Below, one piece after another: positions 4,806 through 44,885 of a stretch of DNA of 47,498 nucleotides. Origin of the DNA: a virus (lineage: Duplodnaviria; Heunggongvirae; Uroviricota; Caudoviricetes); IMG/VR virus record IMGVR_UViG_2660238269_000006. One strand, 5' to 3'. Positions within the stretch are counted from its first letter, which is position 1; the number at the start of each line of letters is the position of its first letter. The position numbers and the translations under genes are program-made. The notes below the pieces were generated by a model. The model made no database searches and was not told where the DNA came from. It saw nothing but the letters and a program-made list of their open reading frames with translations.

Positions 4806-5590
4806 TAACTCACCACCGGAGGTAGCAATCTCATGGGTGGTGAGACGCACAGGGTTGCTACAACCGGTCATCATGGAACCCGGCCAGCCTTGCGGCTGCC
4901 CTGCACGCCCCACCATAATCTGAATGTGGCTGTGCATTACGCATAAAAAAACCGCCTGAGCGCGGTTATGCGCCATGATGAACATCGGGGTAGCAATCCC
5001 GGCACCCGCTTTATGAGGTGCAGGTGCACTATAATTCCACCCGTTCTGGTTTTCAATAGCTACATTCAACATTTTCTCTTACCTTTCATCACCGAAGTGA
5101 ACTTTGTCGATGCAGTGCCTGGTGCCTCCAGGTGACGTTAACCAGTTAACAATTAACGCCGGAATACAGAAGTATGCCCGTTACGCCCCGTAAAAGACCA
5201 CTTTACGGTTTTAACTGTTCCGCGTGCGCTTAGCCGCATTCACCGCATCACAAAATTCACTTTAAAAAGGGCGGACATCAGAAAGCTAATAAACTGATGC
5301 CGCCAAAGGTACCACTGCCATTGAAACATGGAGATGTTGTGGCGGGGTTGTCACTCAGGCATATGGTCAACCTGACAACCCGGTGTCCTCAATGAGGGGA
5401 AAAGAAATAAAAACCCCCAGCCATATTTACCGCCGCGCCATTTCGCGGATTGCCACAACCGGAAGCACACGGTCGAAGAAATCTAACGACAAGCCTTCTA
5501 AGGAAAAGACGCCTTCGCCGTGTGCTTTCTGTTGTGCCCTGACTTTTCAGGGTAAATTAACCAGTGGCAACCTGTTTTTACTGGTGCTAA

Positions 5591-17761: not shown

Positions 17762-17837
17762 GGCCCTTTAGCTCAGTGGTGAGAGCGAGCGACTCATAAT
17801 CGCCAGGTCGCTGGTTCAAATCCAGCAAGGGCCACCA
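17762..17837 (+). tRNA. ileZ: tRNA with anticodon CAU, Ile2(LAU)-like
   Basis: 76-nt cloverleaf: acceptor ggccctt/aagggcc, anticodon loop cuCAUaa, T-loop ttcaaat, encoded CCA. Closely resembles E. coli tRNA-Ile2 as recalled; gene name follows the Stx-phage tRNA cluster. Confidence 0.7.
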
Positions 17838-17846
17838 TATCACATA

Positions 17847-17923
17847 CCGCCATTAGCTCATCGGGACAGAGCGTCAGCCTTCGAAGCTGGTTGCGCGGGG
17901 TTCGAGTCCTCGATGGCGGTCCA
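17847..17923 (+). tRNA. argN: tRNA-Arg (anticodon UCG)
   Basis: 77-nt cloverleaf: acceptor ccgccat/atggcgg, anticodon stem tcagc/gctgg, loop cuUCGaa, T-loop ttcgagt, encoded CCA. Symbol assigned by position. Confidence 0.6.
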
Positions 17924-17936
17924 TTATCGGTATTCA

Positions 17937-18013
17937 GCGTTGTTAGCTCAGCCGGACAGAGCAATTGCCTTCTAAGCAATCGGTCACTGGTTCGAATCCA
18001 GTACAACGCGCCA
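17937..18013 (+). tRNA. argO: tRNA-Arg (anticodon UCU)
   Basis: 77-nt cloverleaf: acceptor gcgttgt/acaacgc, anticodon stem attgc/gcaat, loop cuUCUaa, T-loop ttcgaat, encoded CCA. Symbol assigned by position. Confidence 0.6.
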
Positions 18014-39253: not shown

Positions 39254-39997
39254 ATGACACAGACTGAATCAGCGATTCTGGCGCATGCCCGGCGGTGTGC
39301 GCCAGCGGAGTCGTGCGGCTTCGTGATAAGCACACCGGAGGGTGAACGGTACCAGCCCTGCGTGAATATCTCCGCAGAGCCGGAGGCGTATTTTCGTATT
39401 ACACCGGAAGACTGGCTGCAGGCACAGATGCAGGGGGAGATTGTGGCGCTGGTCCACAGTCATCCCGGTGGTCTGCCCTGGCTGAGCGAGGCGGACCGGA
39501 GGCTGCAGATAAAGAGTGCCCTGCCCTGGTGGCTGGTCTGCCGGGGTGAAATTCACCGGTTCCGCTGTGTGCCGCACCTGACCGGACGGCGCTTTGAACA
39601 CGGTGTGACGGACTGTTACACCCTGTTCCGGGATGCTTACCATCTGGCGGGGATAACGCTGCCGGATTTTGTGCGTGAGGATGACTGGTGGCGCAACGGT
39701 CAGAACCTGTACCTGGACAACCTGGCGGAAAACGGCTTTTACCGGGTGTCTCCGTCCCGTGCACAGGCAGGCGATATTCTGCTGTGCTGCTTTGGCGCAT
39801 CGGTGCCGAATCATGCCGCCATTTACTGTGGCAACGGTGAACTGCTTCACCATATACCTGAACAACTGAGTAAACGGGAGAGGTATTCAGAGAAATGGCA
39901 ACGACGAACGCATTCTGTCTGGCGTCACCGCCACTGGTCCGCATCTGCCTTCACGGGGATTTACAACGATTTGGTCGCCGCATCAGCCTGTATGTGA
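39254..39997 (+). CDS. Tail tip protein gpK-like (JAB/MPN plus NlpC/P60 domains)
   Basis: HARRCAPAESCGFV...ALVHSHPGG (MPN-like) and VTDCYTLFRDAYHLAGITLPDF (NlpC/P60-like); start ATG at 39254. Confidence 0.7.
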   Translation: MTQTESAILAHARRCAPAESCGFVISTPEGERYQPCVNISAEPEAYFRITPEDWLQAQMQGEIVALVHSHPGGLPWLSEADRRLQIKSALPWWLVCRGEIHRFRCVPHLTGRRFEHGVTDCYTLFRDAYHLAGITLPDFVREDDWWRNGQNLYLDNLAENGFYRVSPSRAQAGDILLCCFGASVPNHAAIYCGNGELLHHIPEQLSKRERYSEKWQRRTHSVWRHRHWSASAFTGIYNDLVAASACM

Positions 39998-40574
39998 ACA
40001 CGGCAGCGGAGGCCATCCGTGCCCTGTCGCTGCAGGTGCCGGGATTCCGCTGTCAGATGAACGAAGGCTGGTATCAGATACGTATTGCCGGTGAGGATAC
40101 CGCGCCGGAGGCGGTGTATGCCCGTCTTCATGAGCCACTGAGCGGGAGGGCCGTGATTCATATTGTACCGCGGCTGGCCGGAGCCGGGGGAAATGGTGTT
40201 TTTCAGGTGGTGCTGGGGCTGCAGCCATCGTGGGCTCTTTCTTCACCGGCGGCGCAACGATGGCGTTGTGGGGCGCAGCCCTGAGTGCCGGAGGGCTGAC
40301 TGCCACCACGATGCTGTTCTCACTGGGGGTCAGCATGATACTGGGTGGCGTGGCACAGATGCTGGCCCCGAAGGCAAAGACGCCGGAGTACAAAAGTACG
40401 GATAACGGTAAACAGAACACGTATTTTTCGTCACTGGACAACATGATTGCCCAGGGTAACCCGATGCCGGTGCCTTACGGTGAAATGCTGGTTGGTTCAC
40501 GACGGATATCCCAGGACATCAGCACCCGTGATGAGGGCGGTGACGGGAAAGTGGTGGTTATCGGGCGGGGATAA
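39895..40574 (+). pseudogene. Tail assembly protein gpI-like, interrupted by an apparent 1-nt frameshift
   Basis: ORFs 39895..40284 and 40230..40574 together cover a lambda gpI-like protein; the frame changes at the GGGG run at 40215-40218. Confidence 0.65.
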
Positions 40575-40943
40575 AAATAAAAAAATCCCGCAGAGTTAGC
40601 GGAGCTGCGGGAAATAACGATGAAGATTAACGTTATGGAGTTATTTTTTTGGGCAGAAAAACAGTAACGCAGCGTCATTATTGCGGCTACAGGCAATTGC
40701 CGGAAGTGTGAAGAATTTCAGAAATTTTCTGTGGCGGGGCTGAAATAAAAAACGCTCCCGCAATACACCTGGATATTAACGGGAGGAACGAATAGTCACC
40801 TTAAGGAGTTGCGATTAATTGCTTTTATTGACCGCAGGTAATCTACCCATCCGGCAAGGTTTCCTCCACGGGAATTTGCCGGAAATGTGAAGAATTTCAG
40901 AAATTTTATTCTGTCATGACACAGGCACCCTCCGGGGTGCCTG
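40575..40943. repeat. Tandemly duplicated non-coding element in the I-J intergenic region
   Basis: Two units, each with an identical 22-mer tgtgaagaatttcagaaatttt (40707-40728 and 40886-40907) containing the palindrome AATTTC-a-GAAATT, plus a hairpin with a flanking A/T run (40587-40611 and 40755-40785). Confidence 0.5.
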
Positions 40944-40994
40944 TTGTTTTCTGGCATAAACAGATTCAGACATCAGACAGGAGAGGGGGACAGA

Positions 40995-43900
40995 GTGGGT
41001 AAAGGGGGCGGCAAGGGGCACACACCGCGTGAGGCGAAGGACAATCTCAAATCCACGCAGATGATGAGCGTGATTGATGCCATTGGTGAGGGACCGGTGG
41101 AAGGTCCGGTGAAGGGACTGCAGAGTATTCTGGTGAACAAAACCCCGCTGACGGACACGGACGGTAATCCCGTGATACACGGTGTGACCGCCGTCTGGCG
41201 TGCCGGGGAGCAGGAGCAGACACCGCCGGAAGGCTTTGAGTCCTCCGGGGCGGAAACCGCACTGGGCGTGGAGGTGACGAAGGCAAAGCCGGTGACGCGC
41301 ACCATCACGTCAGCGAACATTGACCGTCTGCGGGTCACCTTCGGGGTGCAGTCACTGGTGGAGACCACCTCAAAGGGTGACCGTAATCCCTCTTCTGTCC
41401 GGCTGCTGATTCAGCTTGAGCGTAACGGTAACTGGGTGACGGAGAAGGATATCACCATTAACGGCAAGACCACCTCGCAGTACCTGACGTCGGTGATTCT
41501 GAATAATCTCCCTGAGCGCCCCTTTAACATCCGGATGGTCAGGGAGACGGCGGACAGCACCACGGACCAGCTGCAGAACAGAACGCTGTGGTCGTCATAC
41601 ACCGAAATCATCGATGTGAAACAGTGCTACCCGAACACGGCGATTGTGGGGCTGCAGGTGGATGCGGAGCAGTTTGGTGGCCAGCAGCTGACGGTGAACT
41701 ACCATATCCGTGGTCGCATCATTCAGGTGCCGTCAAACTATGACCCGGAAAAACGCACCTACAGCGGTATCTGGGACGGGAGTCTGAAACCGGCATACAG
41801 CAATAACCCGGCCTGGTGCCTGTGGGACATGCTGACCCACCCGCGCTACGGGATGGGAAAACGCCTGGGGGCGGCGGATGTGGACAAGTGGGCTCTGTAT
41901 GCCATCGGGCAGTACTGCGACCAGACGGTCCCGGATGGTTTCGGGGGAACAGAGCCGCGGATGACCTTTAATGCGTACCTGTCACAGCAGCGTAAGGTCT
42001 GGGATGTCCTGGGGGATTTCTGCTCGGCGATGCGCTGTATGCCGGTATGGAACGGCCAGACGCTGACGTTCGTTCAGGACCGTCCGTCGGATGTGGTGTG
42101 GCCGTACACCAACAGCGATGTGGTGGTGGATGATAACGGCGTGGGGTTCCGCTACAGCTTCAGTGCCCTGAAGGACCGGCACACGGCGGTGGAGGTGAAT
42201 TACACCGACCCGCAGAACGGCTGGCAGACTTCCACGGAACTGGTGGAAGACCCGGACGCCATCCTGCGCTACGGGCGCAATCTGCTGAAGATGGATGCGT
42301 TTGGCTGTACCAGCCGCGGTCAGGCCCACCGTGCCGGACTGTGGGTGATAAAGACAGAACTGCTGGAAACGCAGACGGTGGATTTCACGCTCGGGTCACA
42401 GGGGCTGCGGCACACGCCCGGTGACATTATTGAAATCTGTGATAACGACTACGCCGGGACCCTGACCGGCGGACGCATCCTGTCCATCGATGCTGCCAGC
42501 CGCACACTGACGCTGGACCGTGAGGTGACACTGCCTGAGACAGGTACATCGACGGTGAACCTGATTAACGGCAGCGGTAAGCCGGTGCGCGTGGACATCA
42601 CTGCACACCCCGCCCCGGACCGGATACAGGTCAGCGCCCTGCCGGATGGCGTGGAGACATACGGTGTGTGGGGACTCTCCCTGCCGTCACTGCGTCGTCG
42701 CCTGTTCCGCTGTGTTTCCATCCGGGAAAACACGGACGGCACCTTTGCCATCACGGCAGTGCAGCACGTACCGGAAAAAGAAGCCATTGTGGATAACGGG
42801 GCCCGCTTTGAGCCGCTCTCCGGCTCACTGAACAGCGTCATCCCGCCGGCAGTGCAGCACCTCACGGTGGAGGTGAGTGCCTCAGACGGCCAGTATCTGG
42901 CGCTGGCGAAATGGGACACGCCGCGGGTGGTGAAGGGCGTGCGCTTCAGTCTGCGCCTGACCAGTGGCAGTGGTGAGAACAGCCGCCTGGTGACCAGCGC
43001 CCTCACGGCGGACACGGAGTACCGTTTCAGTGGCCTGCCGCCCGGGGAATACACCCTGACGGTCAGGGCGATAAACAGCTACGGCCAGCAGGGCGAACCT
43101 GCCACCACTACATTCCGGATTAATGCGCCTGCAGCACCGGCCAGCATTGAGCTGACGCCGGGGTATTATCAGATAACAGCAGTACCGGTGCTGGCGGTGT
43201 ATGACCCGACGGTACAGTATGAATTCTGGTTCTCAGAAAAACGCATCACGGACATGGCACAGGTGGAAACCTCTGCCCGTTATCTGGGGACAGGCAGCCA
43301 GTGGAGTGTCTCCGGCCCGCACATTAAGCCGGGGAAGGATTTCTGGTTTTATGTGCGCAGCGTCAACCTGGTGGGGAAATCTGCGTTTGTGGAAGCCAGT
43401 GGCCGGGCGAGCAATGATGCGGAAGGGTATCTGGACTTTTTCAGAGGAGAAATCGGGAAGACACATCTGGCACAGGGGATGTGGGAGCTGATTGATAACA
43501 GCCAGCTTGACGATGAGATGGCGGAGATGAAGACCACCATCACCGAAACCCGCAATGAAATCACGCAGACGGTCAGTAAAACTCTGGAAGACCAGAGTGC
43601 CACCATACAGCAGATACAGCGGGTGCAGACAGACACAAATAACGACCTGGCTGCGCTGTACATGCTGAAGGTGCAGAAAACGAAAAACGGCATTCCGTAT
43701 GTTGCCGGTATAGGTGCGGGGATTGAGGATGCTGATGGCCAGCCCCTGAGCAATATTCTGCTGCAGGCGGACCGTATCGCGATGATTAACCCGGAGAACG
43801 GCAACACCACGCCGCTGTTTGTGGCGCAGGGGAATCAGCTGTTCATGAACGATGTGTTCCTGAAACGACTGTTTGCGGTGAGTATTACCTCATCAGGTGA

Positions 43901-44543
43901 GCCTCCGACGTTTTCCCTGACGCCGGACGGGAAACTGACAGCCCGTAATGCGGATATCAGCGGACATATCAGTGCGAACTCGGGCACGCTGAATAACGTG
44001 ACCATTGCAGAAAACTGCGTTGTTAAAGGAACCATTAGCGCAGACAGAATCATCGGTGATATCGTCAAGGGCTATTCCTTCGAACCTCGTGATGGCACGC
44101 TCCATATTACGAACCACAAGTATGGAGAGGGTTATGTCATCTTTAAGGCGGAGGTATCTCTTGCTGATGATGTTTCGTTTGATCGCAAGCTGATACTCCT
44201 TCCCTTCTTTTTCTATTCAGGAACACTGACGATAGCGATTAACGGAAGAGTTGTCATTAAGGCAGAACCGAGAATTGCTGATACGGGTTTTTCAGGTCGT
44301 TTTGACAGAAATGGCAATGCTGTTAACACGTACACCAACCTCGGGGACACCGTTTCAGGAGTATGGGATGTGGTGGCAGGAGGGGGAGATACACGGATTA
44401 CAGTGACAATGAGAGTTGAAGGTGGTCCTGGCAATATGGGGGATGTGGAAGGGAGAAAGAGAGAGCTGGTGCGATGGAGATATGACGCCTTTACTCTCAT
44501 GGTGGCGAAATCGACAGATTCCGGTTTTACCCGGAGATCGTGA
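40995..44543 (+). CDS. Central tail fibre / host-specificity protein (gpJ-like)
   Basis: N-terminal [21 protein letters not shown] and long collinear similarity to lambda gpJ; GTG start at 40995 with RBS AGGAGAGGGGG; the C-terminal roughly 150 aa diverge from lambda. Confidence 0.8.
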
Positions 44544-44744
44544 CAGGCAGCCGGAATACGGATTGCCGGAAGGAGACAAAAACCGTACATTATGCGCGGG
44601 TGCCTTTGGCTGATGGCCGGAGGGAACACCTGAAGGCCGGAAAGACGAAGGCCCCGGACAAACATTCATGTTTAACCCGAGGCCTGACTTTCGATCTTCA
44701 GCAAATTGAAGGTTAGCGCCTCTCCGTAAAAGGAGCAAGCGTTT

Positions 44745-44885
44745 ATGTCGCAAAAACCGTTAAAAACCACCGTGATTTGTATCACGGTAGTGCTCATTAT
44801 CTGGATCACCCACAGTTCACTGTGCGAGTTCCGGTTCCGGATAGCGGGCGCGGAGATTGCGGCGTTCTTACAGTGTAAGCAGTAA
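44745..44885 (+). CDS. Hok/Gef-family type I toxin (46 aa)
   Basis: MSQKPLKTTVICITVVLIIWITHSSLCEFRFRIAGAEIAAFLQCKQ: transmembrane helix followed by the SLCE-R-R...E-AAF motif of Hok family peptides; RBS AAAGGAG; GC-rich hairpin at 44894-44916 immediately downstream. Confidence 0.6.
   Translation: MSQKPLKTTVICITVVLIIWITHSSLCEFRFRIAGAEIAAFLQCKQ

What the first reader, a model, noticed from the sequence alone, without database searches (positions are those of the whole stretch)
40575..40943. Tandem repeat element with palindromic motif inserted between tail genes I and J
In lambda, I is followed almost directly by J; here about 370 bp intervene. It holds two roughly 170-bp units, each with an identical 22-mer tgtgaagaatttcagaaatttt centred on the perfect palindrome AATTTC-a-GAAATT. 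Each unit also has a hairpin whose T-run falls on the minus strand, that is, terminators oriented against the tail operon. This looks like two small minus-strand transcription units or a regulator-binding array.
Basis: seen in the sequence. Interest (0 to 1): 0.55.

Follow-up and report, generated by a model that had tools for sequence, protein, structure and literature searches.

The report
Tandem PasB-family prophage small-RNA genes
The ~370 bp between tail genes I and J hold two side-by-side copies of a known, Hfq-dependent prophage small-RNA gene (PasB in EPEC, probably EcOnc22-24 in EHEC), read against the tail operon; the first copy is an ordinary family member and the second is a divergent copy with a damaged promoter.

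Summary
There are two 179-bp units, each with the identical 22-mer and a minus-strand terminator.

Unit 1 is an orthologue of PasB, an 83-nt Hfq-dependent sRNA validated by Northern blot in EPEC E2348/69. PasB occupies the same I-J slot on the same antisense strand. Unit 1 is 90% identical to the Sakai Sp15 copy, which very probably is EcOnc22 (~85 nt, destabilised without Hfq).

Unit 2 is a divergent paralogue, about 55% identical to unit 1 at the RNA level. It keeps the upstream 22-mer, the AACUCCUUAA block and a terminator, but has lost the family's -10 box. Whether it is expressed is uncertain.

Related prophages carry one to four such units in this slot. The held PasB literature does not describe tandem copies.

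What is conserved is a dyad, TGTGA-N6-TCAGA, about 44 bp upstream of the predicted start. It resembles a CRP site but sits at a non-canonical distance.

A plus-strand small ORF was tested and rejected.

Verdict: a known kind of element with a new divergent member and a new tandem arrangement. Interest is modest.

The parts
39895..40574 (+). Tail assembly gene I, upstream flank; frameshifted in this window
   Evidence: tblastn with VT1-Sakai protein I: residues 1-107 lie in frame 1 and 107-226 in frame 3. The near-identical locus L096 has one intact frame.
40579..40670 (-). Unit 1: predicted 92-nt PasB/EcOnc22-type sRNA (5' GCGUUACUG...; AACUCCAUAAC and GUUAAUCUUCAU blocks; terminator)
   Evidence: 90% identical to the Sakai Sp15 copy and 78% to E2348/69 PasB. 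nhmmer with a family model that excludes this copy gives E = 5.4e-25. The PasB Northern probe AATCCCGCAGTGATCGCGGAGCT matches 40584-40606 except in the loop.
40579..40612 (-). Unit 1 Rho-independent terminator: stem CCCGCAG/CUGCGGG plus U7
   Evidence: Across relatives the stem is invariant, the loop has at least 12 variants, and one variant is compensatory (CCCACAG/CUGUGGG).
40677..40682 (-). Unit 1 -10 hexamer AATAAT; the predicted start is G at 40670
   Evidence: It aligns with TATAAT of the E2348/69 PasB promoter, TTCACA-16-TATAAT, which scores 11/12 in the scan tool. The start site is inferred, not measured.
40704..40728 (.). Unit 1 conserved upstream element: the 22-mer, with dyad TGTGA (40707-40711) - N6 - TCAGA (40718-40722)
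   Evidence: It lies a fixed 24 nt upstream of the -10 in all canonical units.
40747..40832 (-). Unit 2: divergent PasB-like sRNA body (AACUCCUUAAGGUGACUAUUCGU plus terminator). The 5' end is uncertain.
   Evidence: A family model built without this type gives E = 5.6e-22 for the whole unit and E = 0.0037 for the RNA part alone. The same 3' module with an intact promoter occurs in L023 unit 3 and L029 unit 3.
40747..40786 (-). Unit 2 terminator: bulged stem CUCCCGU..ACGGGAG-type, plus U6
   Evidence: Fold. Relatives differ in the inner part of the stem, the E, F and L029u3 types; whether each difference keeps pairing was not counted.
40840..40845 (-). Possible substitute -10 (TAGATT) for unit 2
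   Evidence: Read from the sequence only. The canonical -10 position holds AACCTT. No consensus-like promoter was found by the scan.
40883..40907 (.). Unit 2 conserved upstream element: the 22-mer, with dyad TGTGA 40886-40890 / TCAGA 40897-40901
40921..40954 (+). Plus-strand terminator-like hairpin with T-run between the last sRNA promoter and J
   Evidence: Energy -27.9 kcal/mol, z = -5.6. Conserved in E2348/69 with a different loop, and with a compensatory stem change in L127.
40995..44543 (+). Tail tip / host specificity gene J, downstream flank
   Evidence: ORF list. Homologous loci are annotated as J or gpJ.

Best explanation
The I-J intergenic region carries two tandem, independently terminated small-RNA genes of the PasB/EcOnc22 family. 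They are transcribed on the minus strand, antisense to the tail operon.

**Architecture of a unit, read on the minus strand.**
- A conserved AT-rich 22-mer containing the dyad TCTGA-N6-TCACA.
- A 24-nt spacer.
- A sigma-70 -10 box.
- An RNA of about 90 nt: it starts GCGUUAC, has a variable 5' hairpin, two conserved blocks predicted to be largely unpaired (AACUCC(A/U)UAA, which resembles the anti-Shine-Dalgarno sequence, and GUUAAUCUUCAU), and ends in a terminator with a U-tract.

**Unit 1** is a normal family member. By homology it most likely makes an Hfq-bound, trans-acting sRNA in the lysogen. That sRNA would base-pair with host and prophage mRNAs; PasB has 37 recorded Hfq-dependent partners in EPEC.

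**Unit 2** is a divergent paralogue, and its second block differs (GUGACUAUUCGU). It arose by recombination: its upstream 40 nt are like unit 1, its 3' module matches units found in 3- and 4-unit arrays, and a 44-nt replacement removed the canonical -10 and the 5' end. It is either weakly expressed from a substitute -10 (TAGATT) or silent.

**The dyad** is most likely the binding site of a dimeric transcription factor, or an UP-like element, that drives or co-regulates every unit. CRP is the best sequence match, but the position does not fit.

**What is shown and what is inferred.**
- Shown: homology, position, strand, terminators, unit architecture and variation in copy number.
- Inferred: expression in this host, the start sites, Hfq dependence here, and any role of the dyad.
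For: **Homology to PasB.**
- PasB is on record at NC_011601.1 1466343..1466261, minus strand, 83 nt, prophage PP6. It was validated by Northern blot with probe AATCCCGCAGTGATCGCGGAGCT.
- Its level is strongly lower in the hfq mutant (log2 fold changes -6.8 and -2.4). It is higher in overnight static LB. It has 37 RIL-seq interactions.
- That position lies between the tail assembly gene and gpJ of E2348/69.
- The E2348/69, VT1-Sakai and window sequences align over promoter, RNA and terminator.

**Link to EcOnc22-24 in Sakai.**
- EcOnc22, 23 and 24 are Hfq-CRAC peaks. EcOnc22 gave a Northern band of about 85 nt and was destabilised in the hfq mutant.
- All three lie in the I-J gaps of Sp15, Sp14 and Sp11, on the strand antisense to the tail genes.
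- The published coordinates come from an older genome version. With the offset of about +140 nt calibrated on AgvB1, the peaks fall on the PasB-like RNA.

**Family membership of the two units.**
- Identities for unit 1: 90% to the Sp15 copy and 78% to PasB.
- Models built without the window copies still hit both units.

**Architecture and copy number.**
- 79 unique units from 123 sequences (122 fetched loci plus the window) share the same architecture.
- Copies per locus: one in 103, two in 10, three in 2 and four in 8.
- The E2348/69 promoter TTCACA-16-TATAAT scores 11/12.
- The terminator stem is invariant while its loops vary, and there is one compensatory variant.
Against: - No expression data exist for this window.
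- Unit 2 lacks the canonical -10 (AACCTT), and no consensus-like promoter was found anywhere in 40200-41300.
- Unit 1's own promoter has a poor -35 (TCCGGC).
- Predicted RNA lengths (92 nt here, 98 nt for E2348/69) exceed the measured 83-85 nt, so the start site may lie further downstream or the RNA may be processed.
- The EcOnc22 assignment rests on a coordinate offset calibrated about 1 Mb away.
- Apart from the terminator, no secondary structure is conserved, and covariation support is thin because the relatives are close.
- The loci were collected using the 22-mer as the search pattern, so its apparent invariance is partly by construction.
- No Rfam family matches.
Confidence: 0.85

Rival explanations
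1. Unit 2 is a recombination scar or pseudogene. On this reading only unit 1 is a working sRNA gene, and the tandem arrangement is an accident of unequal recombination between prophages at the conserved 22-mer.
For: - The canonical -10 is replaced by AACCTT and the conserved 5' end GCGTTAC is lost.
- Each extra unit carries a remnant of the 3' end of gene I (GGCGGGGCTGAAATAA against GGCGGGGATAAAAATAA). That points to recombination between whole I-J regions.
- This unit type is rare, in 27 of 5,426 complete genomes, and all copies are at least 96.8% identical. Conservation therefore says nothing about function.
Against: - The terminator, both conserved RNA blocks and the complete upstream dyad are intact.
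- A plausible -10, TAGATT (A at position 2, T at position 6), lies 16 nt further downstream.
- Units with the same 3' module and an intact promoter exist (L023 unit 3, L029 unit 3), so the module itself belongs to a real gene type.
Confidence: 0.4
2. The units encode small proteins of about 40 aa on the plus strand, MKINV(M/K)ELF...NVKxFRNFIPS. These would be late-operon morons, or type I toxins with the antisense RNA as antitoxin. The 22-mer would then be conserved because it encodes the C-terminus.
For: Three diverged alleles have open frames of 39-41 codons that begin after a GGGAGAG-like ribosome-binding site and run in frame through the 22-mer. One phage record annotates a hypothetical protein here (H38).
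Against: - 25 of 79 unique units have no ATG at this position.
- Many others are cut short by stop codons or frameshifts: 15 aa in window unit 1 and 22 aa in E2348/69. Window unit 2 has no start codon.
- Differences between intact alleles are spread evenly over codon positions ([7,12,12], [12,12,9], [6,11,14]). Nonsynonymous codon changes far outnumber synonymous ones (15:5, 23:2, 17:5).
- The peptides are not hydrophobic in the way type I toxins are (judged by eye).
- An open frame of 40 codons has about a 15% chance of arising by chance.
Confidence: 0.04
3. The region acts mainly in cis on the tail operon. Its hairpins and the terminator-like structure before J would attenuate or process the I-to-J late transcript. 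The antisense RNAs would pair with that transcript and tune J expression, rather than acting in trans.
For: - A very stable, conserved plus-strand hairpin with a T-run sits just before J.
- Each sRNA is perfectly complementary to the late mRNA.
- The slot expands up to about 1 kb in other prophages without displacing J.
Against: - PasB is abundant on Hfq in lysogens, with 37 trans partners and no induction.
- The sRNA terminators have no U-run in the plus sense.
- Q-modified polymerase is expected to read through intrinsic terminators (established lambda biology).
- This could be an additional function rather than a replacement.
Confidence: 0.1
4. The repeated 22-mers form a free-standing array of regulator or recombinase binding sites, unrelated to any RNA.
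For: The 22-mer is the best-conserved block, and the boundaries of the repeat units coincide with it.
Against: In every unit it sits a fixed 24 nt upstream of a -10 box, and this is followed by an sRNA body and a terminator. It is never found apart from such a unit in the real hits.
Confidence: 0.03

Closest known systems
PasB sRNA of EPEC E2348/69 (Pearl Mizrahi et al. 2021, PMC8550237; surveyed by Zhu, Shabalina and Storz 2026, doi 10.64898/2026.05.13.724894)
   Same: - Same slot, between tail assembly gene I and J of a lambdoid prophage.
- Same antisense strand.
- Same promoter-upstream 22-mer, same spacing to the -10, and the same conserved blocks and terminator stem.
- Unit 1 is 78% identical over the RNA.
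   Different: - E2348/69 has one copy with a near-consensus promoter, TTCACA-16-TATAAT. The window has two copies, unit 1 with a weak -35 and unit 2 without the canonical -10.
- The 2026 survey reports a minimum distance of 28 kb between pasB copies and no tandem duplication. Arrays of one to four units are therefore not described there.
EcOnc22 / EcOnc23 / EcOnc24 of EHEC O157:H7 Sakai (Tree et al. 2014, PMC4104026, Table S2)
   Same: - Hfq-CRAC peaks in the I-J gaps of Sp15, Sp14 and Sp11, on the strand antisense to the tail genes.
- Northern band of about 85 nt, destabilised without Hfq.
- The Sp15 sequence is 90% identical to window unit 1.
   Different: - The identity of the peaks with the PasB-like RNA rests on a version offset of about +140 nt that I calibrated on AgvB1.
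- Neither paper links EcOnc22 to PasB (one search lists no EHEC homologue for PasB).
- The function is listed as unknown.
- Each of the three Sakai prophages examined (Sp15, Sp14, Sp11) has a gap of single-unit size.
Tandem paralogous sRNA genes: OmrA/OmrB in E. coli, PrrF1/PrrF2 in Pseudomonas (from established knowledge; cited)
   Same: Adjacent, independently transcribed and terminated sRNA genes. They share promoter elements and conserved ends but have divergent internal or seed regions.
   Different: - There is no sequence relationship.
- Those pairs are chromosomal and have known regulators (OmpR, Fur).
- Here the copies sit in a prophage tail operon, their number varies from 1 to 4, and they appear to have been assembled by recombination between different phages rather than by local duplication.
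Prophage anti-sRNAs AgvB/AsxR at the PR' moron site (Tree et al. 2014)
   Same: Short Hfq-binding sRNAs carried as cargo at fixed slots of EHEC lambdoid prophages, with conserved 3' modules and variable target-recognition parts.
   Different: - Different slot (late-promoter moron site against the I-J gap).
- Different sequence and size (51-60 nt against about 85-92 nt).
- No Rfam AgvB or AsxR match in the window.
- No evidence here of sRNA mimicry.

Membership tests
PasB / EcOnc22 sRNA family | Located between tail genes I and J of a lambdoid prophage, on the strand antisense to the tail operon | tested here: met
   Window. E2348/69. VT1-Sakai. Sakai Sp15, Sp14 and Sp11.
PasB / EcOnc22 sRNA family | Sequence homology of the RNA to the validated members (unit 1) | tested here: met
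   78% identity to PasB and 90% to the Sp15 copy. nhmmer with the RNA-only model built without this copy gives E = 5.4e-25.
PasB / EcOnc22 sRNA family | Sequence homology of the RNA to the validated members (unit 2) | tested here: inconclusive
   52-56% identity. The RNA-only model gives E = 0.0037, 13 bits. The whole-unit model gives E = 5.6e-22, but most of that comes from the promoter-upstream part, which alone gives E = 2.3e-15.
PasB / EcOnc22 sRNA family | Rho-independent terminator with a U-tract of at least 4 (a criterion used to call PasB) | tested here: met
   Unit 1 has U7. Unit 2 has U6.
PasB / EcOnc22 sRNA family | -10 box 24 nt downstream of the conserved TTCACA of the 22-mer | tested here: met
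   Unit 1 has AATAAT at 40682-40677 and meets the feature. Unit 2 has AACCTT at the equivalent place and does not.
PasB / EcOnc22 sRNA family | Expressed as an RNA of about 83-85 nt whose stability depends on Hfq | not testable with these tools
   Known only for E2348/69 and Sakai.
CRP-dependent promoter (considered for the 22-mer) | Match to TGTGA-N6-TCACA | tested here: met
   TGTGAAGAATTTCAGA matches 9 of 10 core positions plus the AAA flank. At up to 1 mismatch, 1.46 such sites are expected per window by chance and 4 are found. Across alleles the two pentamers are fixed and the 6-nt spacer varies. That invariance is partly imposed by the search pattern.
CRP-dependent promoter (considered for the 22-mer) | Site centred at -41.5 (class II) or at -61.5 and further positions in helical phase (class I) | tested here: not met
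   The centre is about -44.5 from the start predicted from the -10 in canonical units. It would be about -60.5 to -61.5 only for the hypothetical TAGATT promoter of unit 2. The start sites are predicted, not measured.
Type I toxin-antitoxin or small-protein gene | Conserved open reading frame under purifying selection | tested here: not met
   start codon missing in 25 of 79 units, frames broken, no bias towards third-position changes.
Any Rfam family | Covariance-model match | tested here: not met
   No match at gathering scores. Only noise with E above 1 in 40400-41100.

The most novel reading that the evidence does not exclude
The I-J gap of Escherichia lambdoid prophages may be an expandable cassette site for sRNA genes. 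One to four divergent PasB-type genes accumulate there by recombination at a shared 22-bp operator. On this reading all copies answer to one still-unidentified dimeric regulator binding TGTGA-N6-TCAGA. A single signal would then release a set of sRNAs with different seeds, forming a phage-borne, co-regulated sRNA battery.
Probability: 0.3. Interest if true: 0.5.

Novelty: new member of a known kind. Interest (0 to 1): 0.3.

Why it matters
- **Annotation gap.** This sRNA family is carried by many pathogenic E. coli. Megablast of the gap finds matches in 801 of 5,426 complete genomes, with a median of 3 places per genome. Yet the family has no Rfam model, and none of the records I looked at annotates an RNA there.
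- **Two literatures joined.** If the coordinate offset holds, PasB (EPEC, 2021) and EcOnc22-24 (EHEC, 2014) are the same family.
- **A testable model of diversification.** The slot holds arrays of one to four diverged copies that share one upstream operator. That gives a concrete way to test how prophage sRNA repertoires diversify, and a defined DNA site with which to look for the regulator.
- **Limits.** It does not change what is known about how such sRNAs work.

Tried and rejected
- **Rfam.** Nothing at gathering or permissive thresholds in the region.
- **Tandem Repeats Finder.** The units are too diverged to be reported.
- **RNAalifold on 29 family members.** Only 3 terminator pairs were predicted, partly because the E/F-type terminators misalign. 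No conserved 5' structure emerged. Single-sequence folds differ between alleles.
- **AgvB/AsxR anti-sRNA identity.** My first lead, rejected: these sit in a different slot and have a different sequence.
- **Plus-strand small ORF or type I toxin.** Rejected.
- **Other readings of the 22-mer, checked by eye.** Sigma-54, sigma-28, sigma-E, FNR, Cra, Fur, IHF, Fis and the UvrY/GacA box. Each fits worse than the CRP-like dyad, or its matching positions are not the conserved ones. CRP itself fails on position.
- **Plus-strand promoter that would use the hairpin before J as its terminator.** None found.
- **Trans targets inside the window, by duplex energy.** Only the trivial cis complement stands out.
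- **Scan of one genome per species.** The real hits are E. albertii plus three short contigs that look like E. coli prophage contamination. The remaining hits are chance matches.

Full report
**1. What is in the sequence**

Gene I ends with TAA at 40572-40574. J begins at GTG 40995. The gap between them holds a 40-nt direct repeat at 40689-40728 and 40868-40907, 90% identical and 179 bp apart. The repeat includes the identical 22-mer tgtgaagaatttcagaaatttt. The 25-mer around it occurs nowhere else in the window, even at three mismatches, where none is expected by chance.

The two 179-bp periods are only 63% identical, which is why Tandem Repeats Finder does not report them.

Each period ends, on the minus strand, in a hairpin followed by a U-run:
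- Unit 1: CCCGCAG/CUGCGGG plus U7, at 40612-40579.
- Unit 2: a longer bulged stem plus U6, at 40786-40747.

The observation as a whole is confirmed.

**2. Identity**

No Rfam family matches. The literature gave the answer. Pearl Mizrahi et al. 2021 (PMC8550237, Table S6) list PasB with these properties:
- NC_011601.1 1466343..1466261, minus strand, 83 nt, prophage PP6, with the Northern probe AATCCCGCAGTGATCGCGGAGCT.
- Much lower levels in the hfq mutant (log2 fold changes -6.8 and -2.4) and 37 RIL-seq interactions.
- Higher expression in overnight static LB than in DMEM.

In E2348/69 this position is the gap between the tail assembly gene and gpJ. The probe equals window 40584-40606 except in the terminator loop.

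Alignment of the window, VT1-Sakai and E2348/69 shows homology through promoter, RNA body and terminator. Window unit 1 is 78% identical to PasB and 90% identical to the Sakai Sp15 copy.

**3. A second experimental link**

Tree et al. 2014 (PMC4104026, Table S2) list EcOnc22, 23 and 24 in Sp15, Sp14 and Sp11. EcOnc22 gave a Northern band of about 85 nt and was destabilised in the hfq mutant.

In NC_002695.2 all three peaks lie in the I-J gaps, on the strand antisense to the tail genes, and at the same relative position. The published coordinates belong to an older genome version. AgvB1, whose sequence is known, sits about 140 nt further along in the current version. With that offset the peaks fall on the seed-and-terminator part of the PasB-like RNA.

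I consider EcOnc22-24 and PasB one family, with a probability of about 0.85. Neither paper makes the link, and EcOnc22 is still listed as having unknown function.

**4. Comparative anatomy**

A scan of viral contigs with the 22-mer returned 120 loci. Together with the window and the two reference loci they give 79 unique units. Read on the minus strand, every canonical unit has:
- AAAAnTyCTGA-N6-TCACAyTT.
- Exactly 24 nt of spacer.
- A -10 box (TATAAT, AATAAT, TATCAT or CATAAT).
- About 6 nt, then GCGUUAC.
- A variable U-run/A-run hairpin.
- AACUCC(A/U)UAA, which shares CUCCUUA with the 3' end of 16S rRNA (my own knowledge).
- GUUAAUCUUCAU.
- The terminator.

The E2348/69 promoter TTCACA-16-TATAAT scores 11/12. 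Unit 1 has AATAAT with a weak -35.

The terminator stem is invariant while its loop has at least 12 variants. One variant is compensatory, CCCACAG/CUGUGGG. Nothing else in the structure is conserved.

**5. Copy number**

Of the 123 sequences examined (122 loci plus the window):
- 103 have one unit.
- 10 have two units: nine with 179-bp spacing, the window among them, and one with 226-bp spacing.
- 2 have three units.
- 8 have four units.

Extra units carry a remnant of the 3' end of gene I (repeat D2). The arrays were therefore built by recombination between whole I-J regions at the conserved 22-mer, not by simple local duplication.

The 2026 survey of Pas sRNAs reports a minimum distance of 28 kb between pasB copies and states that Pas copies are not tandem. 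The divergent units would escape a BLAST search with PasB. The arrays therefore appear to be undescribed in the literature I could search.

**6. Unit 2**

Its upstream 40 nt are like unit 1. Its 3' module (AACUCCUUAAGGUGACUAUUCGU plus a bulged terminator) is the one found in L023 unit 3 and L029 unit 3, where it follows a normal promoter.

Between these two parts, 44 nt have been replaced. As a result the canonical -10 position reads AACCTT and the GCGUUAC 5' end is gone. A possible substitute -10, TAGATT, lies at 40845-40840.

A family model built without this type, and without the window copy, still finds unit 2. The whole unit gives E = 5.6e-22 and the RNA part alone gives E = 0.0037.

This unit type occurs in 27 of 5,426 complete E. 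coli genomes, all at least 96.8% identical. Conservation therefore cannot tell whether it functions. I put expression at about even odds.

**7. The 22-mer**

One caveat applies: the primary hits were selected with this motif. The informative cases are the internal units, found at up to four mismatches, and their mismatches all avoid the pentamers.

The element matches the CRP consensus at 9 of 10 core positions plus the AAA flank. PasB is high in the same condition where the CRP-repressed Spot 42 is low.

However, the dyad centre is about -44.5 from the start predicted from the -10. That is neither a class II nor a class I position. CRP is therefore a lead, not a conclusion. An unknown dimeric factor or an UP-like element remain open.

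**8. Rivals**

- **Plus-strand ORF of about 40 codons.** It is open in three diverged alleles and runs through the 22-mer. But 25 of 79 units lack the start codon, many are truncated, substitutions are spread evenly over codon positions, and nonsynonymous changes dominate. Rejected.
- **A cis role on the late transcript.** The hairpin before J and full complementarity to the I-J mRNA make this possible. It cannot be excluded as an extra function, but it does not explain the Hfq-bound trans interactome of PasB.
- **Free-standing binding-site array.** Excluded by the fixed architecture of every unit.

**9. Range**

The family is found in Stx-converting and other lambdoid phages of E. coli: 147 phage records, all single-unit-like. 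It is also in E. albertii. It is absent from representative genomes of other species, apart from three contigs that look like contamination. This agrees with the 2026 survey.

**10. Verdict**

This is a known kind of element. Unit 1 is an already-known sRNA family that simply lacks annotation. Unit 2 and the tandem arrangement are new details. The mechanism (an Hfq-dependent, trans-acting sRNA made in the lysogen) is inferred by homology, and expression here is untested.

Noticed in passing
window 39895-40574: Tail assembly gene I is split between two reading frames near 40215: residues 1-107 in frame 1 and 107-226 in frame 3. The otherwise identical locus L096 has an intact gene. This is either a real inactivating frameshift, which would make the prophage defective, or an assembly error.
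   Followed up: partly
window 40921-40954 (+); also L002 1631-1664, L127: A strong terminator-like hairpin with a T-run on the tail-operon strand, immediately upstream of J. It is conserved in relatives with different loops and with one compensatory stem change (GGCACCC/GGGTGCC against GGCATCC/GGATGCC). No plus-strand promoter was found that would use it as a terminator, and its role is unexplained.
   Followed up: partly
window 19646-19690 (-): A minus-strand hairpin CUGCCCGCAU..AUGCGGGC followed by U7, convergent with and abutting the STnc100 gene (19437-19645 +). It gives a weak nhmmer hit to the PasB unit model (E = 0.006). It looks like another unannotated convergent prophage sRNA. It does not match the PasA or PasC probes by eye.
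   Followed up: partly
L029, L052, L056, L057, L071, L101, L107, L111, L113 (four units); L023, L051 (three units): The I-J gaps of other prophage contigs hold three or four diverged PasB-like units spaced 216-240 bp apart. Each has its own variant of the dyad, its own -10 and its own terminator. Some carry a different middle block, for example AACGCCAACAGGUUAGUCAAC.
   Followed up: partly
alignment of 79 units, about -24 to -18 relative to the predicted start (window 40687-40693 and 40866-40872): A short block C-n-G-T-(G/A)-G in the promoter spacer is nearly invariant in all unit types, including unit 2. No known promoter element explains it.
   Followed up: no
L133 (Streptomyces flavalbus contig), L129 (Parendozoicomonas haliclonae contig), L127 (Asaia platycodi contig): Short contigs in assemblies of unrelated bacteria carry E. 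coli-type I-J/PasB sequence. Most likely these assemblies are contaminated with E. coli prophage DNA.
   Followed up: no
L130 (E. albertii) and L133: In these loci the 22-mer is followed not by the hairpin and J but by different sequence (atgccattaccggttttaacc...ATGAAAGAAAACCCC). This suggests that another gene is inserted between the sRNA and J.
   Followed up: no
window 4833-5021 (-), 17762-18010 (+), 44598-44756 (+): Other Rfam matches in the window: C4 antisense RNA and isrK side by side, three tRNA genes, and a sok-type antitoxin RNA just after J. This is the usual RNA cargo of EHEC-type lambdoid prophages.
   Followed up: no
Tree et al. 2014 Table S2 against NC_002695.2: The published EcOnc coordinates are shifted by about 140 nt relative to the current Sakai RefSeq version. 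AgvB1 is listed at 1941783-1941835 and found at 1941922-1941978. Anyone reusing that table needs to correct for this.
   Followed up: partly
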